A stretch of DNA of 63,099 nt, filler included, from Reclinomonas americana ATCC 50394 (lineage: Eukaryota): NCBI GenBank assembly GCA_048213135.1. It is 4 parts of 3 records of this genome, joined end to end, with 100 filler letters (N's around TTAATTAATTAA, not from the genome) between each part and the next. Parts side by side here need not be neighbours in the genome. Positions count along the whole stretch, not along the records: positions 16,021 to 39,497 come from PS015235.1; 3 more parts are not named here. The stretch is one strand, 5' to 3'. This document shows, one piece after another, positions 15,651 through 60,142 of this stretch; positions within the stretch are counted from its first letter, which is position 1; every line of letters begins with the position of its first letter. The notes below the pieces were generated by a model. That model was given only the letters and a program-made list of their open reading frames with translations. It did no database searches and was not told where the DNA came from. Both the position numbers and the translations under genes were made by a program.

Positions 15651-15964
15651 CTCACACAGGAGAAGTGAGAGAGGAAGGAGGCAAGGAGGAAATGGAGGGC
15701 AGGGAGGAGGGAGGGAGGAGGAGGAAGAGGAGGAGGAGGAGGAGGAGGAGGAGGAGGAGGAGGAGGAGGAGGAGGAGGAGGAGGAGGAGGAGGAGGAGGA
15801 GGAGGAGGAGGAGGAGAGAGAGAGAGAGAGGAGGAGAGGAGGAGGAGGAGGAGGAGGAGGAGGAGGAGGAGGAGGAGGAGGAGGAGGAGGAGGAGGAGGA
15901 GGAGGAGGAGGAGGAGGAGGNNNNNNNNNNNNNNNNNNNNNNNNNNNNNNNNNNNNNNNNNNNN

Positions 15965-15976
15965 TTAATTAATTAA
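15965..15976. other. Artificial contig-join linker (stops in all six frames)
   Basis: TTAATTAATTAA flanked by N runs on both sides; same construct at 39542 and 57902. Confidence 0.95.
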
Positions 15977-17007
15977 NNNNNNNNNNNNNNNNNNNNNNNN
16001 NNNNNNNNNNNNNNNNNNNNTGCAAAAAAATGAACACAAAATGGCGGACACAGACAAAAATACACGATATCATGAAACAGGACGGCAAGAGCGGGCCCGG
16101 TGGCGTATAATAGTGTCCAGGTGCGCAGAGTGTTTTTGCAAACGCGGGTGAGGGCTGCAATACATGCAGGAGGCAAGCACTGAGTGCCCGATGAAGTTCA
16201 AATTCTGCTCTTGCACTTGCAATTGTTCAAAGCTCGAGAACGCGTGCACGTGCAAGTGTTGCAACGGCCTCGGCGATCCAGATGGGGCATCTACTGCTGT
16301 TTGTATGTGTGATTGGACTTGCGGTCCTCAAGACCGCTGTCGTTGAATTGCACTTGCCGATGGACGTCGCAAAGGCAAGCAGTGGCAGACGCAGAAATGT
16401 GCTACTGAGACGCACCGAGGCCTTGTCGCGAGCAAATACGCAAGCACTTCGGCGACGCTCCCAGAATCACGGGATCACAAGATTTCTCCTTCAGCAATTC
16501 GATTTTCATCGTCCCGTCTCTGTAGTGCCTCCATTTCCGGTTCCCATTCTACAAGGTGATCCGCATTCAGCTGCTGCTGCTGCTATTTGCAGTTGTAAAA
16601 TTGCTTCTGCAGTCGAGAAAAACGAATCCGGACACCAGTCGACGTCACCCGCAAATACACGCGCAAGAATCCCAAACCGACTTGCTGCAAGCCCAACAGT
16701 ACACAACTGAAGTCCTCATCGGCAACGCGGAAAGTGAAAAAAATCTCGCCAACAATCGACGTTGAATTGTCGCAGGACAACCCAAAATAGCGCCCTCACA
16801 CGCGTGCACAAACAGTCGCGCGTGCGTGTGTCTCTGTGTGTGTGTGAAGAACAAGCAACAGCAGGTGAGCGCGCACACACACACAAACAGAGACACAAAG
16901 TGCGTGACATGGCCAACACTCTCTCTCTCATACACAGTGTGCTGTCTCTGTGCAAGACTGTGTGTGACTGTGTGTGACTGTGCGTGTGAGAGAGAGAGCA
17001 AGCAACG

Positions 17008-17252
17008 ATGACTGCGAAATTGCGAGTTCCGGAGAAGCTTATGGAGAAGCCGCAAATGAGTGTGGAACAAGTGGATGAAAAGTGGGAGACTCTCCGCCGC
17101 GCCATTCATCAGATCTATGCCAAGAATTCGTCGTCGCTTTCGTTTCAGACGTTGTATACGTTGCGTAAGGAGAAGAAGGGGGGATGGGGGGAAAAGGGGA
17201 TGAGAATGGGGTGAAAAGAGGGGTAAAAGGGGAGGAGAATGGGGAGAGGGAT

Positions 17253-17311
<59 letters not shown>

Positions 17312-17527
17312 CACTATATGTAGTACGAACGAAGAGATACGTCGTCTCGTCGTCGTACGTACTACTCCGTCCGTCGTACGTACGACGACGACGTACGTAC
17401 NNNNNNNNNNNNNNNNNNNNGGAAGGTAGGTAAGTAGTAGGAGTCCCTACCGTACGTCCTACGTAGTCGAACTAAACTTAACGTACGTTCGTTCGTCGTC
17501 TCCTCTCCTCCTCTTCTCTTCTCTCTC

Positions 17528-17574
<47 letters not shown>

Positions 17575-19290
17575 AGAGAGTGAGAGAAAGAATGAGCGCA
17601 CAGTCTCAGTGACAAGTAACAGATGTCTTTGTCTGTGTATCTTTCTCTCTCCCTCTTTCTCTCTCTCTCTCCCTCTCTCATTCTCCCTCTCTCTCTCTAT
17701 GTGTATGTGTGTATGAGCGCACATCTTTGTGCAACTGATAGATGTCATTGTCTGTTTCTCTCTCCCCTCTCGTGCGTGCCTGCATGTGTGTGTGACATAG
17801 AGAATGAGCGCACAGTCTCTGTGATAATAACAGGTGCAACGGGATCTGTATTTCTCTCTTGCTCTCTCTCTTTCTCTCTCTCCCTTTTTGTCCCTCACTC
17901 TGTCTGTCTGTCTGCCTGCCTCATCTCAGACGCCCGCTTCGCGGCCGTCGTTTCAATCTCACTCTGCAAAGGGATCGCCGCCTTTTCTCGCCCCATCTTT
18001 CCACTTGGGATTGACGCCCGCTTCGCGGCCGTCATTTCATATTTTTCACGCTGCACTCTCTCTCTCCCTTCCTCCCTCCCTCCCTTTTCTCCCTCGTCTC
18101 TCTGCCTCATCTCTGACGCCCGCGATTCGCGGCCGTCATTTCTTTTTCGTCACGAAGGATTTCGCACTCTTTCCCCCTTAATCTTCACTTCTTGACGCCC
18201 GCTTCGCGGCCGTCACCCTTTTTCCTCCCTCGCTCACCTCCCTTCCCCTTCAGCACCGCCTACCAAATGACCGTGTGCCACCAAGCCGAGTTCCTCTACC
18301 ACAAGGTCCGCGAGCTACTCACCGGCTTTGTTACGGAAACGCGGACGGCCCTCGACGCGAAACCCAACTCGCAGTTTGTGGAGGAACTGCGCTCCGCCTG
18401 GGTCTCACATCGCACCTCCATGTTCCTCATCAAGGACATCTTGATGTATGTGGTACGTGAATGGGTCTGCGGCAGAAGCAGCAGTGCACAGTAGAAAAAG
18501 TCCCCCTCCCTCACTCACTCGCCTGCTCGTGCAGGATAAGAACTGGACCTCCAAGCACAAGGACAAGCTCCCGTTCTACCAGCTCGGCCTGTCGCTCTTC
18601 CGCGACCTGGTCGTGCGGCACTCGTCGATTCAGCGGCGCACCGTCAGTCTCATGCTGGAGATGATTCGCCGCGATCGCTCAGGCGACGAGGTGCCCGACA
18701 AGGGCCTGCTGAAGAGCATCACCGAGGTGCGTGGTGTGTGCAGCAGACGTGCCTTCTCCCTCATCTCTCACACGCACGCGCGCGCAGATGTTTGTGGAGC
18801 TCGGCAAGCGCGACGTGTACGAGGCCCTGTTCGAGAAGCGCTTCCTCGAGGAGAGCGAGACATTCTTCCGCGCCGAGTCCTCCCAGTACTTTTCCACGTG
18901 CACGGCCCCCGAGTACCTGCGCAAGGTGAAAGCGCGGATGGATGACGAATTTGACCGCGTGGAGCAGTGCTTGGCCTCGACCACACGCGCGAAGATCCAG
19001 CACGTGATTGTGGATGTGATGGTGGCCAGCTTCTTGCTGGACACGCTGCAGAAGGAGAGCTCCGGGTTCATGGTGCAGCTGAAGGAGGGCAATGTGGAAG
19101 GTGGGGAAGGGGGAGAAGGGGGAAAAGGGTGAAGAAGAGAGGGAAGGAGGGAGTTAAGGGAGAGGATGGGGTTGAGGGTTGGAGACAAAGAAAGAGGGAG
19201 AAAGAGAGGGAGGAATGGGAAAGGGGGAAAAAGTGAGGGAGGGAGGAAAAGGGAGACGATGGGGGTGAGGGTTGGAGACAGACAGACACA

Positions 19291-19369
<79 letters not shown>

Positions 19370-19952
19370 GAGGAGAGGAGGAGAGAGANNNNNNNNNNNN
19401 NNNNNNNNNNNNNNNNNNNNNNNNNNNNNNNNNNNNNNNNNNNNNNNNNNNNNNNNNNNNNNNNNNNNNNNNNNNNNNNNNNNNNNNNNNNNNNNNNNNN
19501 NNNNNNNNNNNNNNNNNNNNNNNNNNNNNNNNNNNNNNNNNNNNNNNNNNNNNNNNNNNNNNNNNNNNNNNNNNNNNNNNNNNNNNNNNNNNNNNNNNNN
19601 NNNNNNNNNNNNNNNNNNNNNNNNNNNNNNNNNNNNNNNNNNNNNNNNNNNNNNNNNNNNNNNNNNNNNNNNNNNNNNNNNNNNNNNNNNNNNNNNNNNN
19701 NNNNNNNNNNNNNNNNNNNNNNNNNNNNNNNNNNNNNNNNNNNNNNNNNNNNNNNNNNNNNNNNNNNNNNNNNNNNNNNNNNNNNNNNNNNNNNNNNNNN
19801 NNNNNNNNNNNNNNNNNNNNNNNNNNNNNNNNNNNNNNNNNNNNNNNNNNNNNNNNNNNNNNNNNNNNNNNNNNNNNNNNNNNNNNNNNNNNNNNNNNNN
19901 NNNNNNNNNNNNNNNNNNNNNNNNNNNNNNNNNNNNNNNNNATATATATAAT

Positions 19953-19992
<40 letters not shown>

Positions 19993-22900
19993 GCGAGGGG
20001 AAGGGGAAAGGAGAGGGGGTGGGAGGGAGATAATGGAGAGGATGGGGTTGAGGGTTGGAGACAGAGAAAGGGAGCGAGATGGTTGACGTGTGCCGAATTT
20101 AGTTGGTCATCATGTTCTGCTTGTAGTTTGACTTCGTGTGTGAATTTGTGTGTTCTCTTGCCATTCCCTAATACTGCTCATTTCCTTAGTCTTCCCCTTA
20201 TTCCTCTGTTCTCCCTTTTGTATCACTATTCACGCCCCCCTTCCCTCCCCTTTGCTCACATTCCTCGCAGACCTGCGCCTCATGTATGATATGTTGTCTA
20301 TGGTGGAATACGCGCGGAACCCGATGATCGAAATGGTCAAGAGCCACATCATCAACGAAGTGCGGCTGTTTGTGCACGACGAGCAGTGCCAGAAGGATCC
20401 GAATTTCTTTGTGCAGGTGTGTGTTTTGCTTGTTGGCTTGGGTTCTTCGACCGCAGTTTGTTCTCTCCAGCTTCATCTCGTCGCTCACTCTCCATTCTCC
20501 TTCTCTCGCAGGGACTGCTGGACATGCGCACCAAGTTCATCGACATGCTCGAGTCGGCCTTCCAGCAGCAGGTGCCGCTGGAGGAGCCATCAGTTGCTGC
20601 CGAGGTTTGTGTGCACAGTCTCGTTCAGTCAGACGCTCGCTTCGCGGGCATATCTTATTTATCGCTCTGCCGAGGGATCGCTGCCTTATCTCCCTGCACT
20701 CTCGTCGCATTCCGCCTGTCAGACGCCCGCTTCCTCCTACTGCTCCTTCTCACTTCATCCATCTCCGCCAGGCCACACACCCACAACAGCAGGCACAGCA
20801 ACGTGCTCGCGCTGCACCTGGCTCACCGGGCAGCGTCGTGGCCATGGCACAGCGCAAGAGCCGCGCATGTGCGTTCAATCACATTCACTCTTGTTGCTCT
20901 CTGTTAATTTTTGACACGCTCTTTTACAGCTTCGCACGACGCCTCCGGCTCGGTGTTCTCCGTCACACGCTTGCTCAGACAACCCGACCAGGCCTTCCTC
21001 AATTGCATGAAGCAGGTGAGTGGGTGACAGATGAACTGCCTGCGAAATTGCTCGTTGGACAGAGGGGGGGGGGGGGGGGAGGAGAGAGAGAGAGCGAGAG
21101 AAGGATGAAACTGAGAATGGAAAGAGCTGGGATATGAAGAGTAGGGTGGACAGAATAAGGCAGATTCATCATTCCCCTTCCGCCCTCCTTCTCCTCATTC
21201 CTGAGGACACAAAGAGAAGGGGAGTACAAAGAAAAGAAGAAGTAAGATGGAGATTTTGAGATAGAAAGACCGATTCATCCTTCCCCTTCCGTCTTCCTCT
21301 TCCTTCCTGAGGACACAGAGAGAAGGGCATTACAAAGCGGAGAAGACGTAAGATGGAGATTCAGAAAGAGAAAGACAGATTCATCATTCCCTTCCGTCTT
21401 CCTTTTCCTCCGTCCTGAGGACACGGAGAGAAGGGGGTTACGAAGAAAAGAAGAAGTGAGAGGGGATGATGTGTGAGAGAGAGGCAGATTCATCCTTTTC
21501 CCTTCCGTCTTCCTTCTCCTTCCTGAGGACACAGAGTGAGGGGATTACGAAGCGGAGAAGAAATGCCTCCTCCTTCTCGTTTTCCTGTCTTGTCCCCTCC
21601 CTCTTGTATCCTCCCTCTTGTATCCTCCCTCTTATATCCTCTTGTCTCCTCTCTTTGTCTCCTCTCTGTGTCTCCTCTCTTGTCTACTCTCTTGTCTCTC
21701 CTCTCCATGTGTTCTCTGGTCTNNNNNNNNNNNNNNNNNNNNCCTTCCCCTTCCCCGTCCGTCTTCCTCCCGTTCTCTTCTCTCTCGTTCCCCCCTTCCC
21801 CTCCACCTTCCCCTCTTGTCTCCTCTGTCTTGTCTCCTCTCTTGTCTCTCCTCTCCATATGTTCTCTGGTCTCCTTTCCCTTCCCCTTCCCTCATCCTCT
21901 TCCCATTCTCCTGTCTAACCTTCCCCCTTCTACTTCCACCTTTACTTCTCCACTTTGCCTTCCCCTCTCTCCTTCACCATTCCCCCTTACCCCTTCCCCC
22001 TTCTCCATCTCTTTCCTCACCGTTCCCCTTCCCCTCTTTACCCTTCCCCTCCACCTTCCCCTCTTAACCCTTCTCCTTTTACCTTGCAGGCCTTCGAACT
22101 GGTGCTGAACGAATTCGAGCGCACCCCCGAATACCTCTCCCTCTACATCGACTCGAAGCTCAAGCGCGGCAAGTCGCAAGTGCCCGAGCACGAACTCGAC
22201 GGTCTCTTTGACAATTGCGTGCAAGTCTTCCGCTATCTGCGCGACAAGGACGTGTTTGAAAAGTACTACAAGAGGCACTTGTCAAAGGTGCGCCCGCCGC
22301 AGGACACATTGTTCTCTTTCTCCTCTTTTGCCTCTCACTCTTTCCGCCTCCTTGCCTGCAGCGCCTGCTCACCGGCCGCAGCATTTCGGACGATGCCGAA
22401 AACCAATTCCTGGGCAAGCTGAAGGCCGAGTGTGGCTATCAGTTTACCAACAAGATGGAGGGCATGTTCAAGGACCTGAAGATCAGCAAGGAGCTGCTGC
22501 AAAAGTACAAGCTGTTCCTCAAGACCAGGACTGTTGCGTCGACTCGAGTGAGAAGAAAACCATGGCGACATAATGTTGACCCTTGTTTGTGTTTGCAGCC
22601 TGCGTTGCCACCGCCACCCTTCGACTTGAGTGTGCAGGTGCTGACCACGGGTTACTGGCCGGCGCCCGTGGAGAGCTTTTGCGACATGAGCGAGTTCCTG
22701 CGGGAGCAGTTGGATGCGTATCGCACGTTCTACTGCAAGCAGTTCTCTGGCCGTCGTCTCACGTGGCACTTGAACATGGTGAGTTTGGGGAGGGGAAGAG
22801 AGGGGGGAGCAGAGGGGAAGTGGGGGGAGAGGGGACTAAGGCTAAAGGGTTGAGGGATGCGGCGCAATGGTTGAGGGTTGAAGGTTGAGGGTTGCGGCGT

Positions 22901-24396
22901 GAGGGTTTAGGGCTGAGAATTGAAGGTTGAGGGTTGCAAAGTGAGGGTTGAAGGATGCGTCGCGAAGGTTGCGGGTCAAGGGTTGCAAAGTGAGGGTTAA
23001 GGGTTGAGGGTTGTGGTGCGAGGGTTGCGGCGCGAGGGTTGAGGGTTGCGATGTGAGGGTTGAGGGTTGAGAGTATAGGGTTGCGGGTTGCGAAGCGAGG
23101 GTTGAGTGTTAAGGATTGCAAAGTAATCGTTAAGGGTTGCGAAGTGAGGGTTGAGCGTTGAGAGTTTACGGTTGAGGTTTGCGGAGTGATGGTTGAGGGT
23201 TGCGGTGCGAGGGTTGAGGGTTGCGGAGTGAGGGCGACCGTGAAGGAGCTGTTTTATCGAACGCGATTGGGGTGTGTGTTCATCTCCTTGCCAGTCTTGT
23301 CGTCTCTATGTCGTCTCTTTTGCGTCGTTTCCTTTCTTTTGCACGACAACATCCACATAGTTGCTGTCCCACGTTTTGTGTTTCACTGATCGCTTCTTGG
23401 TCCTTCTCACCTGAATGGTTTACATATCCTTCTGCTGCTATTCTTGTCGCTCTCTCCTCTCTAGAATTGTCTTCTCAGCTCTCTCCTCCTCCCACGCAGG
23501 GCAACGCCGACCTCCGCTTCAGCTGCGGTGAGGCCAGATATGAACTCAACGTCTCCACTCTTCAAATGTGCATTCTGCTGCTGTTTAACGACGCCGATCG
23601 GATCTCATTTACCGAGTTGGAGGCCACACTGAAGGCACGTTGGGAGATCTCTTTTCTCTCTCTCTCTCTCTCTGTGTGCGTGTGTCTGTTACTTCTTCCT
23701 CTCTCTGACTGTCATCTCTCTGTGTGTATGTGCGTGTCTGTTTATCTCCCTCTTTCCCTTTGCTCATCTTACCTCTCTCTCTACGTTTCTCTTTCTGTCT
23801 GTCCCTTCTCCCTCTCCCGCTTTCTCTTCCTGCCTCCTTCTCTCTCTCCTTCTCTCTTTCCCTCTCCCTTTCTCCCTCTCCCTCTTTCTCTCGTTCTCTC
23901 ACCCTCTCTCCTTCTCCCTCGCTCCCCGTCCCTCTCCTTCTCCCTCTCCTTCTCCCTCTCCCTCTCCTTCTCCCTCACCCTCACTCTCACTTTCTCTCGC
24001 ATGCAGATCCCGCCTCACGACCTCAAGCGCAACATTCTCTCCCTCTGCCTCAAGCACCAGACGCACTCGTGCGTTCTCGTCAAGGAGCCGCACAGCCAAG
24101 ATGTGGAGAAGTCGGACGTGTTTACGCTGAATGCGGCCTTCAAGACCAAGGTGAGCTCATCCCCAATTACCCTCCCACTCGCGCACATATTCAACCCTTC
24201 TGTCTCTCTCCAGAACCTCCGCCGCATCAAGATCTCCTCCGTGGCCATTCGGGAGACAGAATTGGAGAAGCGCAAGACGTACGAGAACATTAATGAGGAC
24301 CGCAAGTGGGAGATTGATGCGGCAATCGTGCGCATCATGAAGGCTTCACGGTCGTGCTATCACCAGGATTTGGTGGCGCGGGTGACGGCGCAGCTG
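17008..24396 (+). CDS. CUL3: Cullin-3-like scaffold (about 14 exons seen; last exon probably in the gap at 24881-25224)
   Basis: WETLRRAIHQIYAKNSSSLSF; KDILMYVD; RTPEYLSLYIDSKLKRG; KDVFEKYYKRHLSKRLL; KLKAECGYQFTNKMEGMFKD; VQVLTTGYWP; neddylation motif EDRKWEIDAAIVRIMK. Confidence 0.93.
17929..18214 (+). repeat. Intronic repeated hairpin motif GACGCCCGCTTCGCGGCCGTC (4 copies)
   Basis: Copies at 17929, 18013, 18115 and 18194 in cullin intron 1; degenerate copies at ~20632 and ~20723. Confidence 0.85.
21160..21560. repeat. Intronic minisatellite, ~107-bp unit x4
   Basis: CCTGAGGACAC anchor at 21200, 21306, 21414 and 21522. Confidence 0.85.
22847..23235 (+). repeat. Degenerate telomere-like (TTGAGGG)n tract within a cullin intron
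   Basis: Dense GGGTTGA/GGGTTAA/GGGTTGC heptamer variants. Confidence 0.8.
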
Positions 24397-25755
24397 GTGA
24401 GGGGGAAATACGGGGAGGGGAGGGAGGAGAAGGGAGGAGAAGGAGAAGACAAGCAGAGCGTGGAGAAGAAATGAAACAGGGAAAGGGGGAGAAGAAGAGG
24501 AAGAGGGAGGCGGAAAGGGAGGAGACGTCGAGAAGAAGAAGAAGCTGGCGAAGAAAAGAGTGAGAAGGGAATGTGAGACTGAGACACGAAGAGAGAGACA
24601 GAAAGGTGAACTATCACAGACAGGCAGAAAGAGCGAGAGAGAGTGAGTGAGTGTGTGAGTGAGTGAGTGTGTGTGTGAGAGAGAGAGAGAGAGAGATGTA
24701 TGTTGGGAGGAGTGGGAGCGTGGCTGAGGCGAGAAAGGAGAGAGAGGCAGTGAGAGAAAGATTGCGAGAAGAGAGAGAGAGAGAGAATTTGAGCCAAGGA
24801 AAAGGCGGAGAGGGTGTCGCTCTCTCGCGGTGTCGTATTATTTGTCTGGGTGCGAGTGGAGAAAGTGCTTGCCAGTGTTCNNNNNNNNNNNNNNNNNNNN
24901 NNNNNNNNNNNNNNNNNNNNNNNNNNNNNNNNNNNNNNNNNNNNNNNNNNNNNNNNNNNNNNNNNNNNNNNNNNNNNNNNNNNNNNNNNNNNNNNNNNNN
25001 NNNNNNNNNNNNNNNNNNNNNNNNNNNNNNNNNNNNNNNNNNNNNNNNNNNNNNNNNNNNNNNNNNNNNNNNNNNNNNNNNNNNNNNNNNNNNNNNNNNN
25101 NNNNNNNNNNNNNNNNNNNNNNNNNNNNNNNNNNNNNNNNNNNNNNNNNNNNNNNNNNNNNNNNNNNNNNNNNNNNNNNNNNNNNNNNNNNNNNNNNNNN
25201 NNNNNNNNNNNNNNNNNNNNNNNNTTGATCACGCAGGGAGTGTCTTCATGACCAACCATTGCTTCCAACGGAGTGTGCATGGGGAGTAACCAATTCGCTC
25301 GTCCTTTCACAAGAACACAAACAAAAACGAGGCCGAAAAGCGAATGATCCTCCTCGTTTGCACTCAATTTTGGAATTCGGCGTCGTGGTTTCTCTTGCAG
25401 CAACGCCAGTATTAGCCATCTCGACTTAATCTCGTTTTTCCGTGATGTCTGAGTTTCTGGTTCTCCCTCAAGATGGTGATCATCATGAAGCTATGTTGCT
25501 GTTTGGATCCGGAAAGTTGTTGTTGTTGTTGTTGCAAAATCCATGTTGCCTACGCAAAAAGGAGTCATAAACGTCGCGACGTCGACGTCACACGTGCAAT
25601 AATGACCGCTTTCTTCAACAAGCACTCATAGCAAGCAGGAGAAGTCGCTTTATCCTCCGTCACCCTTCACAAACACGACCCCATTCTCGAAAAAACTGCA
25701 GGACTTCGAACAAGCTTGAGTCCAATCACAATCGTGCTTGTGAGCGGACAACAAG

Positions 25756-25928
25756 ATGGGCGATGAGCGTGTCTTGGCCGCGGCCATGGGCATCATCGCT
25801 GAGAACCATGCCTGTGGTATTACAGAAGGCAAACTGATGCACGTGCTGCGGGTGAGCAAAAAAAAAAGAGAGAGAAATGAGAAAGAATAGAAAGGAAGAG
25901 AAAGAAAGAGAGAGAGAGAGAGAGAAAG

Positions 25929-25971
<43 letters not shown>

Positions 25972-28900
25972 AGAACGNNNNNNNNNNNNNNNNNNNNNNN
26001 NNNNNNNNNNNNNNNNNNNNNNNNNNNNNNNNNNNNNNNNNNNNNNNNNNNNNNNNNNNNNNNNNNNNNNNNNNNNNNNNNNNNNNNNNNNNNNNNNNNN
26101 NNNNNNNNNNNNNNNNNNNNNNNNNNNNNNNNNNNNNNNNNNNNNNNNNNNNNNNNNNNNNNNNNNNNNNNNNNNNNNNNNNNNNNNNNNNNNNNNNNNN
26201 NNNNNNNNNNNNNNNNNNNNNNNNNNNNNNNNNNNNNNNNNNNNNNNNNNNNNNNNNNNNNNNNNNNNNNNNNNNNNNNNNNNNNNNNNNNNNNNNNNNN
26301 NNNNNNNNNNNNNNNNNNNNNNNNNNNNNNNNNNNNNNNNNNNNNNNNNNNNNNNNNNNNNNNNNNNNNNNNNNNNNNNNNNAGGAGCGCCTTCCCGGTC
26401 TGTGTCCTCGACAACCTGCCGTTCGCGCGCTTTTACATGGCCGCGCTGCGCGACAGGTGACGCGCTCGGAGGAGATCAAATCAAAGTACTTTTTATTGTG
26501 AGTGTGTGTTTTGTTGCATACGTCAGCAATGGTGTCAGTGTGTGTGTGTGTGTGTGAGGGGCGAGAAATGGATCCAGGATAGTGTGGAACCCTCTTTATT
26601 CTCCTCTCCCCTCTTCCTCCTGTGTTCTTTCATTCGTATTCTGCGTCCCTCTTCTCTTGCTTTTTTTCTGTCTTCCTCTTCTTCCTCTTCCTCTTCCTCT
26701 TCTTCCTCCTGCTCCTCCTCCTCCTCCTCCTCCTCTTCTTCTTCCTCCTCGTTCTCTTCCTTCTTTCCTGCTCTTTGTTCTTCTGATCCTTGATCTTCTC
26801 TTCCTTCTCTTCCTCCTCTTCCTCCTCTTCCTCTTCTCCTGCCCCCTTTTTCCTCCTTCAACGTGGACGAGAAGACCCAGAAGATGATCTTGTCCTTGCG
26901 TTTCATCTGATTCTTCTTCTCTTCCTCATCCTTCTTCTCGTTCTCTTCCTCCTCTTCCTGCCCCTCAACGAATTGTCGCCCTCTTGTTCTTCTTGTTCTC
27001 CGTTGTCGTTGCTTTACTGCTTTGTTGTTGCTGTTTTTGTCGTTCTTCTTCTTTTTCTATATCATCTTCTCCTCCACTCCTCCTCCGCCGCCTCCTCCTC
27101 TTCTTCTTGATTTTCTTCCCCGCGGACAAGAAGAAGAAGAAGATCTTGTCCTCGTGTTTCATCTGCTTCTTCTCCTCGTCTTCCCGCTCCCTAACCCTCG
27201 TCGCCTTCTTGTGCTTCTTGTTCTCCGTTGTCGTTGCTTTACTGCTTTGTTGTTGCTGTTGTTCTTCATCTTCTTGATCATCTTGTTCTTCATCGGCATC
27301 CTCTCCTTCGCGTCCTCCTCCTTCTCGCTCTTCTCAGCTCCTTTCCCTCGCTCTCGCCGTTCCTCCACCTCCTCCTCCTCTTCCTTCNNNNNNNNNNNNN
27401 NNNNNNNNNNNNNNNNNNNNNNNNNNNNNNNNNNNNNNNNNNNNNNNNNNNNNNNNNNNNNNNNNNNNNNNNNNNNNNNNNNNNNNNNNNNNNNNNNNNN
27501 NNNNNNNNNNNNNNNNNNNNNNNNNNNNNNNNNNNNNNNNNNNNNNNNNNNNNNNNNNNNNNNNNNNNNNNNNNNNNNNNNNNNNNNNNNNNNNNNNNNN
27601 NNNNNNNNNNNNNNNNNNNNNNNNNNNNNNNNNNNNNNNNNNNNNNNNNNNNNNNNNNNNNNNNNNNNNNNNNTCTCTCTCTCTCTCTCTCTCTTTCTTT
27701 CTTCTTCTTCTTCTTCCCCCTCCTCACCCTTTCCCTTTAACCCCTCCTCGCAGCGCCCGCTCCAGCGGCACTTGGGGATCGTGGCCCGGTTGCAACACCC
27801 TGTTCTGCGAGTACTTGCCACTCAGCGTCCAAAGCGAGCGACAAATCACCTCTCTGTGGCCGGCGGCCACGCGCGTCAAGGCACTTATGCACAACGCTCT
27901 CCGTGGATCTTAACCGTCTTTTTCACTCGCTTTCCCTCAAACAGTTCCTCTCGCTGGATCGAGGAAGGGTGGTCCGCGCCGCACTCATCACCTTCCGCAC
28001 CGTGCAAGATGCTGAGCAAGTGTTGCTCTCCTACACCGGCATGCAACTGGACGACACCTCGTCGGGCATCGCCCTCCAGTACGCTCGGTTTGCGCCCGCC
28101 GTCGAGCCGCCGCAGATGCAAGTTTCGTTTGCATGTGCTTTCCTGGTGGTGGATCTGCGCGTTACCTAACTTGAGCGGTCGTGCAGGTCAGCGCCATTAT
28201 GCAGCGCGACAAATCCGCGCCTGCGGAGGAGGTGCCGGCGAGTGAGGTCAGCTTTTTCTCCTCCAGTCTTGCCGACGTCCAGAAAACTCACAGACTGTGC
28301 GATGCAGACGCCGCCAGTGGACGTATCCACCACCGCCACCACCGCCACCACCACCACCACTGCCACTGCCGCCGCTCCTCCTCCCGCCCCCGCGCCTGCT
28401 CGTCCTCCGTACAGCGTTCCATTCTTTTTCCCTCCTCCACGTGCGCCGCTTGCAGCTTCTGTACTGCAAGCGCCTCCTTTCTACCCTTCGGCTGCTGCAC
28501 CGCCGACTGCCACCACCACCACCACCACCACCACTACGACGACGACGACGGTTTGTCGACCCCACGTTGTTGAATGTTCACGCATTCTTTGGCTCACACT
28601 TTTTCTCGCTGCTGGCAGCAACCGGTGTCCACTGCAGCCGCGGTATGAACTCCTTGCGTGTGCATTTGTGAGGTGGCTGGAACACTCACTGTTTTCGCTT
28701 CACAGCCGAGTGCGCCGCCAACCACGCAGGTTTCCATGCTTTCGCGTTGCAGCCTTGTATTCTCGTCAACCCACTGATTGTGCGCGTACATTGCAGTCCA
28801 AGACGGTGCTGCGTCCAGTCAGCCGCCCACCCATTGTGCGTGTTCATTTGTCATCCCACGCGAGGCTGTGCATTTTGCGTCTCATTGTTAGGACCATGCA

Positions 28901-31900
28901 GGACCCATCGCCACGCATGACCGAGTCGCAGCGTTCGTGGCTGCGCAATGTTCCCGGATTGGCTTCTTCAGCTGGGCCATCGTCGCGGGTGAATGCCGAC
29001 CGAAGCACATGGATCTCTTCTTCGTCACCGTCCCTCACATATCCTACAGCCATCGTCGTCGTCGTCGTCGTCTACAACCGCGCGTGGTCAGCGTCTCACT
29101 CTGCTGGACAAGGTCAGCGTGTCGAGTTTCTCGCGCATCTCGATCTCTCGCCCACCTCATTCGCCCCACAGCTCCCGCCAGAAATGGTCCAGGAGTGCCT
29201 GTCGTTCTTGGACCAGTACGAGTTCCAGCGTCTGTGGCGCACCTCGCAGCAGATCTGCTACTTTTTCGAGGAGGCCATGTACGAGTTTGTTATTCCAGCC
29301 GAGAACTGCCCGACCGAGGTCATGGCCCGGATCCTCGACACGCTGCCGAATCTGCACTGTCTGCGAAGTGCGTCCGCCGTGTGAGCATAAGCGACTTGCG
29401 ACGTTAGCGCTCACGAAGTGCAATTGCAGTGCGAGACATGCCGACTGGCGAGGGAGTGGAACTGGTGACAGTGGCCGCTCGTTTGCCACGACTCGAGCGT
29501 CTCGATCTTGTTCCGTGCTATCAATCCGCAACTCTTTTTTTTTATCACTTTGAGACTCACGTCTCCTCCACAGGGAGTGTTGGATGGATCTGAACTGCTT
29601 GACGCGCTCACGTCGCAAACTGATGATGCCTTCTGGCGGCGATTGCGCGAGCTCCGGCTGTGGGGTTCGCGTCTTCGTGTCTTCGTATCACCGCACATTG
29701 TGACCGATTTTCTCAACCGCCTCTCATCATCCAGGAATCTCTTCCGTTGACACAAACGACGTGCTGCGGTACTTGACGATTCGAGCGAGCCTGCTCGGCA
29801 AACTGGAGACATTCTCGCTCTTGGAGCCTCCAGAGGCATTTGGCGAGCGCCGCGAATGTGCGCCTTGGATCGAGTTCCTCCGCGCTGTGCCACATCTGCG
29901 TTCATTGCGTGTTGCGGTGTGTTCCTGTTCCCATTATGATGCCCACGGCACTCGCTGTGTTGTGACATCCACCGCTGCGCTGTGTGACCAGAATGTGCCC
30001 GGAGGTGCCGAGGATGATGAAGAAGGGTTGTACTCGTCGATGTTGTCGACCACGCTGTCACTGCCGAATCTGGAGGAGCTGCACTTGACACGTGAGTGCT
30101 GGTGGTCGTGCCATAGGAGGGAAAAATGTGGGGGGGCTGTCTCGTAATAATTGATGTTTTGTCGCAGGCTGGGATTTGTCATCGAAAATGGTTGACGATT
30201 TGTGCGATTACCTCTCAGTAGGCTGCAAGCTGACGACGCTTTCGATCGCGGTGCGTGATGTGGGCGATGGTGCATGGAGGAGATGGTGGGGGATTGATTA
30301 GAACAGCGATGCAGACTGCATTCTTGTTGTTTCCATATCTCACCTTCCTCCTGACCCATGCTGCAGTCTTGCTTGGTCACTCTCACTTTTCTTTTCCGTC
30401 TTCCCCTTCCGTCTTACCGCCTTCCATCTTCCTCCCTTTACGTCTTCCCTCCTTCCGTCTTCCCTCTTTCCGTCTTCCCTTCCGTCTTCCCTCCCTTCTA
30501 TCTTCTCACTTCCCCCTTCCCCCTTTCCCTCTTCCCCTTCCGTCCTCCTTCCTCCAGTCTTCCCTCCCCTTCCGTCTTCCTCCTTCTCCTCACCGTCCCT
30601 TCTCTTCCCCCCTTTCCCCCCATTCCCGCTTCCCGTCTCCCCTCTTCCGTCTTCTCCCCTTCTATCTTCCCCCTTCCGTCTTCCCCCTTCTGTCTTCCCC
30701 CTTCCGTCTTCCCCACTTCTGCCTCCCCCTTTCGTCTCTCTCTTTCCCCCTTTCTCCTCTTCTCACTCCCCCCTTCGTCTTCCCCCTTCCGTCTTCTCCC
30801 CTTCCGTCTTCCCCCCTTCTGTCTTCCTCCTTCCGTCACCCCCTTCTGTCTTTCCCCCTTCTGTCTTCCCCCCTTCCGTCTTCTCCCTTCCATCTTCTCC
30901 CTTTCCTCTGTCTCCCCTTTCCGTCTCTCTCTTTCCCCCTTTCTCCTCTTCTCACTTCCCCCCTTCGTCTTCCCCCTTCCGTTTTCTCTCTTCTGTCTTC
31001 TCCCTTCCCCCTTCTCCCCTCCCCCTTCTCCCCTTCCCTCTTTTCCCGCTTCTCCCCCTTCCCCCCATTTCCGTCTTTTCCCCTTGTGACTTCTTCCTTC
31101 CGTCCTCCCCTTCTGTCTTCTCCCCTTCTGTCTTCCCCCCATTCCGTCTTTCCCCCTTCGCCCTTTCCCCCCTCTCCCCCTTTCCCCTCCCCTTCCCCCT
31201 TTCTTCCTTTNNNNNNNNNNNNNNNNNNNNNNNNNNNNNNNNNNNNNNNNNNNNNNNNNNNNNNNNNNNNNNNNNNNNNNNNNNNNNNNNNNNNNNNNNN
31301 NNNNNNNNNNNNNNNNNNNNNNNNNNNNNNNNNNNNNNNNNNNNNNNNNNNNNNNNNNNNNNNNNNNNNNNNNNNNNNNNNNNNNNNNNNNNNNNNNNNN
31401 NNNNNNNNNNNNNNNNNNNNNNNNNNNNNNNNNNNNNNNNNNNNNNNNNNNNNNTCCCCTTTTTGCAGCCATTCCCGGTCGACGGCGCCGAGCTCCTCGT
31501 CGATGCCATTCACCACTGCGATACACTCCGCTCGCTCTACGTCGCCGTCGACTTGGACACCTCGTGGCCGCAGTCGCTAGCCAATGTGGTGGCCACGCAC
31601 CCAAGCATCACCAAGTTCACCGTGGAGGGCGGCGAGATCTCGTTCGATGTCCTGAAGCGCCTGCTGACCGCCCCTCGACTGGAGAAGCTCACCTTGGCCT
31701 CTGTTGACAGTTGCGAGTGCAGCGTGAACAACGTGTGCTTGCTGATACTCATTTGCCGATCCCACCCCCCTCACCTAGCTCACGACGCGTTTTCCGCGCG
31801 GGATCGAAAGTTGTGTGTGTACTGCACTCGTTTTGTTTCTCTTGATCATATATTCTCACATGTGGGTGTGTGATTACGGCAGTCGTCAATTTTTGCTCCC

Positions 31901-33076
31901 GAATGCACTTCGCCGCGGCTCGAAGAGCGGGGTGGTGCTGAAGGATTTTGAAGTCCTTGGTGAGTGCAACAATTGCTGCATTCGTCTGCCGATGCAGCTG
32001 CTTACCCACTCGGCGAATCCAGACTGGGAGCGCGGATCAAACCTCGATGACCTGTACGCGCTGTTCATGGCCGTCGTCAGGTCGAATGCTCTTCGACGCT
32101 TTGCGTTTGCAGGTGCACTTGTTTTGTCTCTTTCTGTCACCTTTCCTCGCTCCCGCTTAAGCAAACAAACTGGGGCGTTGCTGTGCACAGCTCGCATTGG
32201 TACCGAGGTACCTGATCGCCGCGTGCTTGGTGAGTGTGCACTGTGCGCCAACTTTGTCCACATCTCCCCCCTCCATCTCCGTTCACATACCGCGCGCTCG
32301 TATACGTAACAGAATTCTTTGAGAAACTCGATGGCAACCTGACGCTGGAAGAGCTCGTGATGTTCAACGTCGTAGCGCTGGAGAAGCCGGAGGCGGATTA
32401 TATGGCGCAGATGATCTGCTGCGGGCAACACAGTCTGCGCCGCCTGCAGTTGACGCCGGTCGGATCTGTGCCGGCCACCACCAAGTTCCTGCAGGGCATG
32501 AAGGACAGGTATCGCGGTGGACCGTTGGAGCTCGTGGCGTCGTCGGATGTCGCCAGTCTGCAAGGCAGCAACGGTACTCATGTCGCCTTTGGTCCGATCC
32601 GCTGTGACTGCAGAGGGTGCTGAATGCATTTGTTTGGATACAGCTCGACAGTTGGCGAAGCTTGCCAGGTCGATGCAGATTGAGAACCCCAATTTGGTGG
32701 TTCGTGCAATCAACACCCCGCCGGAATACAGCGATGAGTGGGACGTTAACGCGTGGTTTGTCAGCGACTTTGGTGGTGCGTGGCGGACACTCGTTGCGAT
32801 GTACATGGTTGTTTTGTGCTTGCAGTGCGTCATTGTCGTTGTGTGTGTGTGCGCGCAGATGACGACGAGGAAGAGGAGGAGGAAGAGCAGCGGCTACAGC
32901 TGCCGCCGATGCCGCTGCCGATACCGCCGCATCCTCACCATCACCACCACCATCATCAGCTGAGGATTCTGGAAGTGGTGGACTTGGACGTATTCCTTGG
33001 CATCATGATGCAATCCAATCGCTACTTGCGACAGATGCAGCGCCAACTGAATCCGCATCGGCGCAACTGGTTCTGA
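25756..33076 (+). CDS. RRM + Thr/Pro/Ser linker + F-box + RNI-like LRR protein (single spliced gene model)
   Basis: RRM: CNTLFCEHL...ALITFRTVQDAEQVL...GIALQYAR (27754-28121). F-box: LLDK|LPPEMVQECLSFLDQYEFQRLWRTSQQI (~29095-29260). LRR motifs LPNLHCL, LRELRL, VPHLRSLRV, LPNLEELHL, LRSLYV, LEKLTL, LRRLQL. Seven phase-0 exons connect the RRM and F-box without a stop. Acidic/His-rich C-terminus ends at 33076. Confidence 0.75.
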
Positions 33077-35440: not shown

Positions 35441-35624
35441 GATATGTGAGACCTTTTTCTCTTTTTTTCGCGTTCTCCCTCGTGGATTGTGAAGGTAAAA
35501 CGCAGTTGGGATGGAGTCTGGCAGGGTGTACGTGCTCCCTTCTGGCTACACCAGGATCACCTCTCACAGCGTCGACAAGGCGTCCGCGTCCTGTCATCTT
35601 TCTATTCCACTTGCGCGCACACAC

Positions 35625-36722
35625 ATGTCTCTCGCTCCTTCTCGGCCCTCTCTCCTCCCTTTCAAACCTCTGCTTGGGCACACAAATATAGTGATGTCCG
35701 TCACCGTCACTCCCGATGGCCGACACATCATCAGTGGGAGTTATGACAAGACCGTGCGTGTGTGGTTGCTGGCAAGAGGTGAGGAAGTGCGACGTTTGGA
35801 GGGCCACGCAGCGATGGTGGAATCTGTCGCCGTCACTCCTGACGGGAAGCACATCGTGAGCTGCTGCCGCGACTCAGCCATTGTGTGGTCGCTGGAGAGC
35901 GGAGAAGAGGTGCGACGATTGGAGGGACACACTGGTTGGGCGTGGTCCGTTGCCTTCACGCCCGACGGTCAACACGTTATCAGTGGAGGCAGTGACAAGA
36001 CTGTGCGTGTGTGGTCTTTGGCAAGTGGAGAAGAGGTGCGACGACTGGAGGGGCACACTGAATGGGTGAGGTCTGTCGCCGTCACTCCCACTGGTGAGTT
36101 CATTGTGAGTGGTAGCAATGATCGCACTGTACGAGTGTGGTCACTCGCGAGTGGCGAGGAGGTGCGACGATTGGAGATGCACAATGCAGTGGTGACGGTT
36201 GTTGTCACTCCCGATGGTGAGCACATTCTCGGTGGCAGTAGGGGAATTGTGCGAATGTGGTCACTGGCGAGCGGCGAGGAGGTACGAGAGCTGAAATTAC
36301 ACAGTGCATGGGTGCACGTGACATCACTTGCCATCACTCCTGACGAGCGGCACGTTGTGAGTGCGAGTTGGGATACCACAGTGCGAGTGTGGTCACTGGC
36401 GAGTGGAGAAGAAGTGCGACGGATGGAGGGGCACACCAGCCAGGTGTGGTGTGTCGCTGTCACTCCCGATGGTGAGCACGTTGTGAGTGGCGGCAAGGAC
36501 AACGCCGTGCGAGTGTGGTCCACTCCGTGCGGTCTCGCGCGCGAAGAGCTCCACACAGCGTTAGCTGTGATGTGCGCTGTTCAGGAGATGCAGCTGGCTG
36601 CTGACGACGAAGGTGACTCTCGATGCCTGCCAGAGATGGTGCTGCGCTGCTTCATTGTCGAGGATGCCGAGGTCATCGTGTATCGGCGCAGCGTAGACCC
36701 ATGGCCAGAGTCGCATTTGTGA
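35625..36722 (+). CDS. WD40 array copy 1: intronless 7-blade WD40 + conserved C-terminal tail (365 aa)
   Basis: MSLAPSRPS start, seven GH..V.SVAVTPDG..IVSG..D.TVRVWSL repeats, tail EEL..A..AMCAVQEMQL...CLPEMVLRCFIVE. Confidence 0.92.
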   Translation: MSLAPSRPSLLPFKPLLGHTNIVMSVTVTPDGRHIISGSYDKTVRVWLLARGEEVRRLEGHAAMVESVAVTPDGKHIVSCCRDSAIVWSLESGEEVRRLEGHTGWAWSVAFTPDGQHVISGGSDKTVRVWSLASGEEVRRLEGHTEWVRSVAVTPTGEFIVSGSNDRTVRVWSLASGEEVRRLEMHNAVVTVVVTPDGEHILGGSRGIVRMWSLASGEEVRELKLHSAWVHVTSLAITPDERHVVSASWDTTVRVWSLASGEEVRRMEGHTSQVWCVAVTPDGEHVVSGGKDNAVRVWSTPCGLAREELHTALAVMCAVQEMQLAADDEGDSRCLPEMVLRCFIVEDAEVIVYRRSVDPWPESHL

Positions 36723-36914
36723 ATAGTGAGTGAGTGTCTTGATTCTTTCTTTTTGTTCTCTCGTGGTGGTTTGTCAAGTAAAATGCAGTTGTGAAGGAGT
36801 CTGGCAGGATGCATGTTCCCTTCTGGCAGCTTTGCTCACAGCTTCGACAAGCGTCCGTGTCCCATAAAATCACCTTCGTTTTATTTCCACTTGCACGCCC
36901 TCACACCGTTCACC
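36723..36914 (+). promoter_or_regulatory. Conserved intergenic spacer of the WD40 array (candidate 3'-end/promoter signals), repeated between copies
   Basis: Motifs TTGTCAAGTAAAAATGCAG.TGTGAAGGAGTCTGGCAG and CTCACAGCGTCGACA...GTGTCCC recur in the ~190-240 nt spacers. Function is inferred from position only. Confidence 0.45.
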
Positions 36915-57856: not shown

Positions 57857-57901
57857 ANNNNNNNNNNNNNNNNNNNNNNNNNNNNNNNNNNNNNNNNNNN
57901 N

Positions 57902-57913
57902 TTAATTAATTAA
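57902..57913. other. Artificial contig-join linker
   Basis: TTAATTAATTAA between N runs. Confidence 0.95.
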
Positions 57914-57984
57914 NNNNNNNNNNNNNNNNNNNNNNNNNNNNNNNNNNNNNNNNNNNNCTCTCCTCGTCGTCGTCGTCGTGTGTG

Positions 57985-58864: not shown

Positions 58865-60142
58865 ATGGACTCGATGGATCGCGACGTCGACGTCGTGATG
58901 GAAATCTCGCCCGTGCTCGTGCGCGCCTGTTTGTCTTCGTCGACACTGTCTCGCGCACCCGCCCTTGATCCCCGACGCGCCCACTGCGGCAGGTACAACG
59001 ACTCGAGTGAGCACAACCACGCGCGCATAGCAGGACGCGATATCCGACGTCGACTTTCACTCGCGCGCCAATGGGCGCCATGTGCGGGTGCGGCAGCGAG
59101 TCCGAGAACAAGGACACGCTGGCTCCCTTACAGCCGACACTTCCCTCTCCCACTCCTCCTCCTCCTCCTCTTCCTCCGACACCTCCACGGCGTCGCTCAG
59201 TTCGCTTTGCTCCGGGTGTCTTCATTGATCACGTGCACGATGGGCTGTTGATGGCCCGTCCCGACGACAACAGCCGGCGCAGACCCACACAACGATCGCC
59301 CAAGTCAGTCGATCATGACGAGGTTCATCTCGTCACCGACACGGACAATCGTGATGGAGACTTGCAACGCGCCATTCTCGAGTCGGTGCGTGCGTGCGTG
59401 CGTGCGTGTGTGCATATGAGTGAGCGAGACGCGCAGCGGTGAATTTTCCGCCATTGTTTAGGTGAAGGATGTCAGTCGACAACAAGCCGAGGTAGTCGAA
59501 CGGCAACGCGCAGCTGCCAAGGTCGGTTTCGCTGTTGTTCTGTTGTCGTTCCTCGCATGCTCGCTCGTTTTGATCATGTGGTGGCAGGCGCGTGTGCTGA
59601 AGCGGCTGGAGGCGCTGGGCGAGGTGGAGATTGCGACTGTGATCGATGGCAATTGCTTCTTTGATGCGGTGGCCAAGCAGCTGGCGTACCTCGATGTGGA
59701 GCACTTGGATATGGGCGGTGTGCGTGCGCGAGTGGTGCAGTGGATGCAGGCGAATCGGGCCACCAAGATCCACGTGGGCGACGGTCACATGTGCTCGTTG
59801 GAGGAGGCGGTGCAGCAATTCGGCTCCTCGGTGTCGTTTGACGAGTACACGCAGACCATGGCGTGTGATGGCGTGTGGGCCGACGGGGCGTGCGTGTGGG
59901 CCACATGCCACGTCTTCCACATCAATCTGGAAATTCTCTCGTCCACCGAAGACGAAGACTACTTCATTAACACGGTACGTGCGCTCTCTCCTCGTATTCC
60001 CCGATCGAGACACAAATGGACTCTCGCTTCAACTCCACCATGTGCGCAGTTTACCCCGGCGTCGCCAGCGTCCGTCACCGTCCCGTTAATCCACTATCTC
60101 GAGTGGCACTACAGTGCGCGCCGTCAAATCACTCCCATGTGA
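58865..60142 (+). CDS. OTU-family deubiquitinase with UIM-like motif
   Basis: Cys box IDGNCFFDAVAKQL, DGVWAD, His box EWHYS. UIM-like DGDLQRAILES. Start at 58865 is inferred from phase-compatible small exons. Confidence 0.88.

What the first reader, a model, noticed from the sequence alone, without database searches (positions are those of the whole stretch)
27754..29260. RRM fused to F-box-LRR: candidate RNA-binding SCF substrate receptor
Seen: exons 28187-28246, 28308-28550, 28619-28642, 28706-28729, 28797-28835, 28902-28988 and 29050-29112 are all multiples of 3 with GT-AG phase-0 joins. They link the RRM through a T/P/S linker to LLDK|LPPEMVQECLSFL with no stop. Established: F-box+LRR proteins are Skp1-Cul1 receptors. 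I do not know an RRM-F-box-LRR architecture as a standard family. Inference: RNA- or RNP-targeted ubiquitination.
Basis: partly seen in the sequence, partly recalled or inferred. Interest (0 to 1): 0.75.

Follow-up and report, generated by a model that had tools for sequence, protein, structure and literature searches.

The report
RRM-like F-box LRR fusion gene
An unidentified, poorly sampled eukaryote probably encodes one protein that joins a weak RNA-recognition-type domain to an F-box and leucine-rich repeats, an unusual ubiquitin-ligase adaptor layout, but this rests on gene prediction alone, with no transcript or relative to confirm it.

Summary
The exon chain exists exactly as described. 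All seven small exons are multiples of 3 and GT-AG bounded, and they join the RRM-like exon to LLDK|LPPEMV without a stop.

An open frame alone means little: 1691 of 10800 donor combinations are open and in frame. The splice signals are better than chance. With splice matrices trained only on the neighbouring cullin gene and a codon table that excludes this gene, a dynamic program returns all 8 proposed introns. It scores 23.2 bits against a null maximum of -1.8 (0 of 150).

The F-box passes Pfam's cut-off (24.4 vs 20.5 bits). The tail has leucine-rich-repeat periodicity.

The RRM is weak. There is no Pfam hit on either half. Only the second half resembles RRMs, and its RNP1 lacks two aromatic residues.

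No RNA run, genome or orthologue was available.

A two-gene reading (stop 28167-28169, ATG 28199) scores equally and is disfavoured only by its 29-nt spacer.

Verdict: probably one gene (about 0.7). RNA-directed ubiquitination is unsupported inference. It is a new variant of a known kind, of moderate interest.

The parts
25756..25851 (+). Probable first coding exon (ATG at 25756, 32 codons, donor GTGAGC at 25852)
   Evidence: Read from the sequence; no Pfam hit. Its link to the RRM exons is inferred from phase and strand only.
26383..26456 (+). Exon fragment, cut at its 5' side by the gap 25978-26382. It ends in phase 2 at donor GTGACG (26457).
   Evidence: Its last two bases AG plus C at 27754 make one codon. 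No Pfam hit.
27754..27874 (+). Exon with the RNP2-like stretch (LFCEYL): first half of the RRM-like domain
   Evidence: Acceptor CAG ends at 27753; translation. No Pfam or PDB hit and no family-bearing Atlas cluster.
27875..27944 (+). Intron I1, 70 nt, GTCAAG...CAG
   Evidence: Needed to join the two halves of the RRM-like domain in frame.
27945..28121 (+). Exon with the degenerate RNP1 (RAALITF), helix 2 and strand 4: second half of the RRM-like domain
   Evidence: 3 of 3 PDB hits are RRM proteins at E 0.32-1.1. The top three Atlas clusters carry RRM families, at 0.88-0.89.
28122..28186 (+). Intron I2, 65 nt, GTTTCG...CTAAC + 16 nt...CAG. If it is retained, the frame stops at TAA 28167-28169.
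   Evidence: Matrix scores 14.6 and 11.8 bits. This is the one intron on which fusion versus two genes depends.
28187..28246 (+). Linker exon, 20 codons; holds an in-frame ATG at 28199
   Evidence: Codon score 6.3 in the proposed frame vs -8.5 and -12.2 in the others.
28308..28550 (+). Linker exon, 81 codons, Thr/Pro/Ala-rich
   Evidence: Codon score -1.1 vs -21.9 and -32.6; translation.
28619..28642 (+). Micro-exon, 8 codons. One matrix prefers donor 28625, which would leave 6 nt.
28706..28729 (+). Micro-exon, 8 codons; both splice sites are the only candidates within 56-78 nt
28797..28835 (+). Micro-exon, 13 codons
28902..28988 (+). Linker exon, 29 codons. ATG 28896 lies just upstream inside intron I7, and there is an in-frame ATG at 28917.
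   Evidence: Its codon score does not prefer the proposed frame (-2.7 vs -0.3).
29050..29112 (+). Linker exon, 21 codons, ending LTLLDK just before the F-box
   Evidence: unique donor 29113.
28247..29171 (+). Span holding introns I3-I9: 28247-28307, 28551-28618, 28643-28705, 28730-28796, 28836-28901, 28989-29049, 29113-29171 (59-68 nt each, all ending CAG)
   Evidence: Their pooled base composition equals that of independent introns.
29172..29367 (+). F-box exon (starts LPPEMVQECLSFL) plus the first repeat
   Evidence: Pfam PF00646, E 2.6e-5, 24.4 bits vs cut-off 20.5, profile positions 4-31 of 43.
29430..30250 (+). Four LRR exons (29430-29509, 29574-29664, 29735-30091, 30168-30250) with 62-76-nt introns
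30251..31468 (+). Long intron of CT-rich low-complexity DNA with the gap 31211-31454
31469..32623 (+). Last LRR exons (31469-31734, 31883-32112, 32191-32229, 32313-32623 including the stop). These boundaries are my own and less certain.
   Evidence: Weak Pfam LRR_At5g56370 hit, E 0.013, below cut-off.

Best explanation
One intron-rich gene on the + strand runs from about 25756 to 32623, with at least 20 exons. It encodes, in order:
- a short N-terminal part, incomplete because of assembly gaps;
- a degenerate RRM-like domain;
- a disordered linker of about 180 residues rich in Pro, Thr, Ala and Ser, split by eight 59-68-nt introns;
- an F-box;
- about 500 residues of leucine-rich repeats.

By inference from the F-box/LRR family, the F-box docks on Skp1 of an SCF ligase and the repeats hold the substrate. 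The RRM-like module on its flexible linker would be a second docking surface, for RNA or, given its degenerate RNP1, perhaps for a protein. It would bring the ligase to a particular complex.

Shown here: the exon chain, the F-box match and the repeat periodicity. Inferred: that it is one transcript, that the N-terminal module folds as an RRM, and all binding steps.
For: - The chain is stop-free with GT...CAG introns of 59-76 nt.
- With splice matrices trained only on the homology-supported cullin gene (11 donors, 10 acceptors), the linker introns score 10.2-18.1 bits. The five introns of this gene that domain continuity requires score 6.2-21.4.
- With those matrices and a codon table that excludes this gene, the dynamic program returns all 8 proposed introns at intron penalties 8, 10 and 12.7. 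It scores 23.2 bits against a null mean of -40.2 and maximum of -1.8, with 0 of 150 reaching it.
- A first matrix returned 7 of 8 introns, with 0 of 150 nulls reaching its score.
- Codon scores prefer the proposed frame in 6 of 7 linker exons.
- The three exons whose donors are unique are all multiples of 3.
- Pooled intron composition (A .16, C .29, G .24, T .31) matches independent introns (.17.28.23.32). The cullin-to-ATG spacer is different (.27.25.21.26).
- Two-gene parses with a spacer of 200 nt or more score 15.3 bits (penalty 10) or 3.3 bits (penalty 14) lower.
- F-box. LRR periodicity. RRM likeness of the second half.
Against: - There is no transcript evidence and no orthologue, so every splice site is predicted.
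- A parse with the RRM gene stopping at TAA 28167-28169 and a second gene starting at ATG 28199 scores the same (72.2 vs 72.6 at penalty 10; 44.2 vs 40.6 at penalty 14). Only the 29-nt spacer speaks against it, and that is an argument from general knowledge.
- At 10-12 bits, intron-like candidates are as common on the minus strand of the region.
- Linker donors are weaker than cullin donors: G at +3 in 2 of 8 against 8 of 11.
- RRM: no Pfam hit on either half at E up to 10. The first half finds nothing in PDB and no family-bearing Atlas cluster. The PDB E-values are not significant. The Atlas score of 0.89, with 165 shared features, is below the tool's own lines. RNP1 lacks the aromatic residues at positions 3 and 5.
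- The spliced domain could not be given to Pfam or folded.
Confidence: 0.5

Rival explanations
1. There are two products. Intron I2 is not removed, so the RRM protein ends at TAA 28167-28169. The F-box/LRR protein, with the Thr/Pro linker as its N-terminus, starts at ATG 28199. This could come from an overlapping second transcript, or from a single pre-mRNA in which I2 retention and I2 splicing give two isoforms.
For: This parse scores the same as the fusion (72.2 vs 72.6 at penalty 10; 44.2 vs 40.6 at penalty 14). ATG 28199 is in the frame that codon scores favour. I2 has one of the weaker donors (GTTTCG; 11.8 bits with the cullin matrix).
Against: Only 29 nt lie between the stop and the ATG. 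That leaves no room for a 3' end and a promoter, whereas the one clear same-strand spacer in the window is about 500 nt with a different composition. I2 has a CTAAC branch 16 nt before CAG, the same spacing as in three cullin introns. Its 65 nt join the two coding frames exactly.
Confidence: 0.13
2. There are two genes, as in the first reader's own refuter. The RRM protein keeps the Thr/Pro tail and stops at TGA 28646-28648, inside the I5 donor. A separate F-box/LRR mRNA starts at ATG 28896 (or 28917 or 28993).
For: This is the best two-gene parse with a spacer of 200 nt or more. It is only 3.3 bits below the fusion at penalty 14, and 15.3 bits below at penalty 10. ATG 28896 and ATG 28993 each open a frame that reaches the F-box.
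Against: I5, I6 and I7 (11.7, 14.8, 16.9 bits; 12.3, 10.2, 15.4) would then be chance hits or UTR introns. They sit inside a 250-nt spacer whose composition is intron-like, not spacer-like. The two micro-exons between them are both multiples of 3, and one of them has unique splice sites.
Confidence: 0.12
3. It is one gene, but the N-terminal module is not an RNA-binding RRM. It is either a protein-binding pseudo-RRM or an unrelated small domain. The protein is then an ordinary lineage-specific F-box/LRR receptor with an N-terminal extension.
For: There is no Pfam hit on either half and no PDB hit or family-bearing Atlas cluster for the first half. RNP1 lacks two of the three stacking aromatics (read). 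The PDB hits are non-significant.
Against: All 3 PDB hits at E up to 10, and the top Atlas clusters, are RRMs. They align over the RNP1, helix 2 and strand 4 stretch. An RNP2-like LFCEYL lies 35 residues before RNP1, a usual distance (recalled).
Confidence: 0.2
4. It is a dead or mis-assembled locus. The draft has 25 gaps, and single-base errors or a decayed gene could mimic or hide frames.
For: 25 N gaps. The gene's 5' part and one intron are interrupted by gaps. No orthologue was found anywhere.
Against: 27674-31210 is one gap-free stretch that holds both domains. The full 829-codon frame has no internal stop. Codon scores favour the proposed frames.
Confidence: 0.05

Closest known systems
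F-box/LRR (FBXL-type) SCF substrate receptors such as Skp2 and yeast Grr1 (recalled)
   Same: An F-box is followed directly by a long run of leucine-rich repeats. The F-box passes Pfam's cut-off, and the repeats have a period of about 26-29 residues.
   Different: About 280 or more residues precede the F-box, including an RRM-like module and a 180-residue Pro/Thr/Ala/Ser linker. No sequence orthologue was found.
KDM2A/KDM2B and FBXL19 (CXXC DNA-binding finger + F-box + LRR) and yeast Dia2 (TPR + F-box + LRR); recalled, not checked here
   Same: A targeting or nucleic-acid-binding module sits N-terminal to an F-box/LRR cassette. This is the logic I propose for the RRM-like module.
   Different: Those modules bind DNA or the replisome. 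Here the module is RRM-like and its ligand is unknown.
Trypanosoma brucei CFB2, an mRNA-bound cyclin F-box protein (PMC8051951; passages read)
   Same: [quoted passage not shown]
   Different: [quoted passage not shown] The authors say its mode of RNA binding is unknown.
Schizosaccharomyces pombe Pof8 (PMC5805746; passages read)
   Same: It is a protein once listed as a putative F-box protein that carries RRMs.
   Different: The authors could not confirm its F-box. It is a La-related telomerase subunit without LRRs. Here the F-box is the best-supported part and the RRM the weakest.
RING-type RNA-binding E3 ligases. The RING/RRM architecture is noted in PMC2408969 (passage). MEX-3C and Roquin are cited in PMC8051951 (reference list).
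   Same: An RNA-binding module and a ubiquitin-ligase module lie in one polypeptide.
   Different: In those proteins the ligase module is a RING finger that binds the E2 directly. Here it would be an adaptor for a cullin-RING complex.

Membership tests
F-box proteins (Pfam PF00646) | Sequence match to the F-box profile above the curated cut-off | tested here: met
   24.4 bits vs 20.5, E 2.6e-5, profile positions 4-31 of 43, on the exon 29172-29366 alone. PF12937 F-box-like is below its cut-off (15.5 vs 24.3).
F-box proteins (Pfam PF00646) | Three-helix F-box fold | tested here: inconclusive
   The single-sequence AlphaFold model is helical but has mean pLDDT 64.0. Foldseek against PDB found no match at E 0.001 or better.
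F-box proteins (Pfam PF00646) | Binding to Skp1 | not testable with these tools
   No Skp1 of this organism is at hand, and no genome is held.
F-box/LRR (FBXL-type) receptors | Tandem leucine-rich repeats C-terminal to the F-box | tested here: met
   LxxLx[LIVF] occurs 9 times in 505 residues against a shuffle mean of 3.2, with 5 of 2000 shuffles reaching 9. Spacings are 29, 28, 26 and multiples of those. Pfam gives only a sub-threshold LRR_At5g56370 hit (E 0.013, 15.6 vs 27 bits).
RRM (Pfam PF00076 clan) | Profile match to an RRM family | tested here: not met
   Neither half hits any family at E up to 10. The spliced domain could not be submitted, so this test is weaker than it looks.
RRM (Pfam PF00076 clan) | RNP2 and RNP1 motifs with their aromatic residues (consensus recalled) | tested here: inconclusive
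   LFCEYL keeps the aromatic at RNP2 position 2. RAALITF has Ala and Leu where RNP1 positions 3 and 5 are aromatic (translations; positions 16 and 51).
RRM (Pfam PF00076 clan) | Likeness to known RRMs | tested here: inconclusive
   Second half: 3 of 3 PDB hits are RRMs at E 0.32, 0.83 and 1.1, and the top Atlas clusters are RRM at 0.89, 0.89 and 0.88. First half: no PDB hit, and the two Atlas clusters shown carry no common family (0.76, 0.75).
RRM (Pfam PF00076 clan) | beta-alpha-beta-beta-alpha-beta fold | not testable with these tools
   The domain is split by intron I1. A model of the second half alone was all-helical at pLDDT 67.6 and is not usable.
RNA-binding E3 ligases (functional class) | Demonstrated RNA binding and ligase activity in one protein or complex | not testable with these tools
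   Needs experiments.

The most novel reading that the evidence does not exclude
This is a true RNA-binding SCF receptor. The RRM holds a specific RNA, and the long flexible linker lets the LRR-bound SCF ubiquitinate proteins sitting on that RNA. That would be the first cullin-RING adaptor with a built-in RRM. Intron I2 retention (stop at 28167-28169) could act as a switch between a free RRM protein and the ligase-coupled form.
Probability: 0.12. Interest if true: 0.7.

Novelty: new variant of a known kind. Interest (0 to 1): 0.4.

Why it matters
The RNA-binding ubiquitin ligases I could find in print are RING-type. For F-box proteins on RNA I found only CFB2, whose RNA contact is unknown, and Pof8, whose F-box is doubted.

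A cullin-RING adaptor with a built-in RRM would show that SCF ligases can also be aimed at RNA-protein complexes through a standard RNA-binding fold. It would also offer a simple system to test that idea.

The four full-text searches for an RRM plus F-box architecture turned up no such paper. That covers only the held open-access library, and InterPro architectures could not be queried.

The case is weakened because the RRM looks degenerate and the gene model is untested.

Tried and rejected
- No whole genome is held.
- Homologues:
  - The 118-residue LRR exon found nothing among longer proteins. It had 2 hits in 1.84 billion representatives, a 4261-residue repeat protein and a 151-residue Cys-rich protein, and neither is an orthologue.
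  - RRM exon B found nothing among longer proteins.
  - The metagenome scan gave 1 locus of 211 pattern matches. It was a 20-residue match in a frame with stops, so it is spurious.
  - These blanks say little. Even a conserved 66-residue cullin stretch finds at best 67% identity, so the lineage is barely sampled.
- Structures: single-sequence models of exon B (pLDDT 67.6, all helix) and of the F-box exon (pLDDT 64.0) were too poor to use. Foldseek on the latter found nothing.
- phmmer of the F-box exon against PDB gave only chance-level hits to pyrin and adenylosuccinate lyase.
- Exon A found nothing in PDB and no family-bearing cluster in the Atlas.
- Pfam found nothing on exons 1 and 2 or on the downstream ORF.
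- The neighbouring cullin is not the SCF partner. It is closer to CUL4/CUL3 (E about 1e-13) than to CUL1 (E about 7e-10) and is named cullin 3 by its best hits.
- The introns show no obvious similarity to one another by eye, so a tandem-repeat origin of the micro-exon array was dropped. I ran no alignment.
- Earlier notes of this scan: none on this genome or on this sequence.

Full report
**Setting.** The window is a draft eukaryotic scaffold with 25 N gaps. Short introns are about 50-95 nt, and longer introns are filled with CT- or GA-rich low-complexity DNA. No whole genome is held and no RNA run was listed. The organism is unknown. A conserved 66-residue cullin stretch finds at best 67% identity in 5.8 billion clusters, and the one hit that carries an organism name, Acrasis kona, is at 61%. 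The lineage is therefore barely sampled, and blanks in homology searches carry little weight.

**The observation.** They are bounded by GT...CAG introns of 59-68 nt.
- The exon before them ends at 28121, and the F-box exon starts at 29172.
- Joined by coordinates, 27755-32623 is a 2490-nt frame with a single terminal stop.
- The 180-residue linker is 33 Pro, 33 Thr, 28 Ala and 25 Ser.
- The start at 27754 is a true acceptor. Its first base completes a codon begun at 26455-26456.
- A plausible first exon with ATG lies at 25756.
- The gene is therefore larger than the finding, about 25756-32623.

**Is it more than chance?**
- *The open frame is not.* One frame has a single stop (TAA 28167-28169) between 27741 and 29384. 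1691 of 10800 donor combinations give an open, in-frame link. 138-140 of 150 random sequences allow some open chain.
- *The signals are.* I trained splice matrices on the neighbouring cullin gene alone. Its exons are fixed by tblastn with three cullin proteins. The linker introns score 10.2-18.1 bits, no worse than the five introns of this gene that domain continuity requires (6.2-21.4).
At penalty 15 it returns 6. It scores 23.2 bits against a null mean of -40.2 and maximum of -1.8, with 0 of 150 reaching it.
- *Earlier matrix.* A first matrix gave 7 of 8 introns, preferring donor 28625 to 28643, with 0 of 150 nulls reaching its score.
- *Codon scores.* They prefer the proposed frame in 6 of 7 linker exons and in 8 of 8 F-box/LRR control exons.
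- *Composition.* Intron base composition matches independent introns and differs from the one clear same-strand spacer.
- *Against.* At 10-12 bits the minus strand of the region has as many candidates as the plus strand. The excess is strand-specific only from 15 bits. The linker donors are also weaker than the cullin donors.

**One gene or two?** A parse with gene 1 stopping at TAA 28167-28169 and gene 2 starting at ATG 28199 scores the same as the fusion. It differs only in whether intron I2 is removed.
- I2 has GT, 65 nt and a CTAAC branch 16 nt before CAG. That is the spacing seen in three cullin introns, and it joins the two favoured frames.
- The alternative leaves a 29-nt spacer, which I judge unlikely from general knowledge.
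It scores 15.3 bits (penalty 10) or 3.3 bits (penalty 14) lower, and it must dismiss three good introns.
- I put one gene at about 0.7. Retention of I2 could still yield an RRM-only isoform.

**Domains.**
- *F-box.* Pfam PF00646 scores 24.4 bits against a cut-off of 20.5. The match starts at the first residue of the exon at profile position 4, so the preceding LTLLDK would fill positions 1-3.
- *Repeats.* LxxLx[LIVF] occurs 9 times against 3.2 in shuffles, with 5 of 2000 shuffles reaching 9, at spacings of about 26-29 residues.
- *RRM.* Only the second half speaks. All 3 PDB hits are RRM proteins, but at E 0.32-1.1. The top Atlas clusters are RRM at 0.89.
- *Against the RRM.* Neither half hits Pfam. 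The first half finds nothing in PDB and no family-bearing cluster in the Atlas.
- *Motifs.* RNP2 (LFCEYL) keeps its aromatic residue. RNP1 (RAALITF) lacks those at positions 3 and 5 (consensus recalled).
- *Limit.* The spliced domain could not be tested, and partial single-sequence models were unusable.

**Mechanism.**
- *Best supported.* The protein is an SCF-type substrate receptor.
- *Inferred.* The RRM-like module on its long linker is a second docking surface, in the way that DNA-binding or TPR modules precede the F-box in KDM2/FBXL19 and Dia2 (recalled).
- *Not shown.* RNA binding. It is doubtful given RNP1.

**Comparison with what is known.** In the passages read, CFB2 of T. brucei is an mRNA-bound F-box protein that binds SKP1, and neither an RRM nor LRRs are named among its domains (PMC8051951). 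Pof8 of S. pombe has RRMs, but its F-box could not be confirmed (PMC5805746). RING/RRM ligases are known (PMC2408969). Four full-text searches found no RRM + F-box + LRR architecture. Earlier notes of this scan list other F-box fusions in protists but none with an RRM (unchecked).

**Verdict.** The sequence observation is confirmed. The single-gene reading is probable but unproven, and the RNA-targeting reading is speculative. It is a new variant of a known kind, and I score interest at 0.4.

Noticed in passing
window 17008-25250 (+): A multi-exon cullin gene lies directly upstream on the same strand. It is closer to CUL4/CUL3 (PDB E about 1e-13) than to CUL1 (E about 7e-10), and its best database hits are named cullin 3. 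It is therefore probably not the SCF cullin, and the adjacency to an F-box gene looks coincidental.
   Followed up: partly
window 35499-47376 (+): Six long stop-free ORFs of about 400-440 residues each are all WD40 repeats (PF00400, E 1e-67 to 1e-83). Some are separated by only 70-110 nt. This is either a giant WD40 protein or a tandem array.
   Followed up: no
window 5485-10284 (-): A single 1599-residue ORF of fibronectin-type-III-like repeats. It hits PhoD_N, Pur_ac_phosph_N and fn3 in many stretches.
   Followed up: no
window 49605-50627 (+) and 59462-60139 (+): ORFs with an oxysterol-binding-protein match (E 2.3e-8) and an OTU cysteine-protease match (E 2.8e-9).
   Followed up: no
window 26457-27753 and 30251-31468: The long introns of this gene consist of CT-rich low-complexity DNA and each holds an assembly gap. 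The cullin gene's long introns are GA- or CT-rich in the same way.
   Followed up: no
window 27741-29384 (+): One frame has a single stop over 1.6 kb, and stops are rare in all three frames (about 9 in 3 x 404 codons, by my count from the translations). Long open frames here are therefore no evidence of coding.
   Followed up: yes
window 32634-32825 (+): A coding-looking open stretch lies just after the stop at 32621-32623. It has no Pfam hit and several intron-like candidates nearby. It may hold further exons of the F-box gene or be the next gene.
   Followed up: partly
window 15921-16020, 39498-39597, 57858-57957: Three pairs of 44-N gaps, each pair separated by 12 bases. This looks like a scaffolding artefact.
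   Followed up: no
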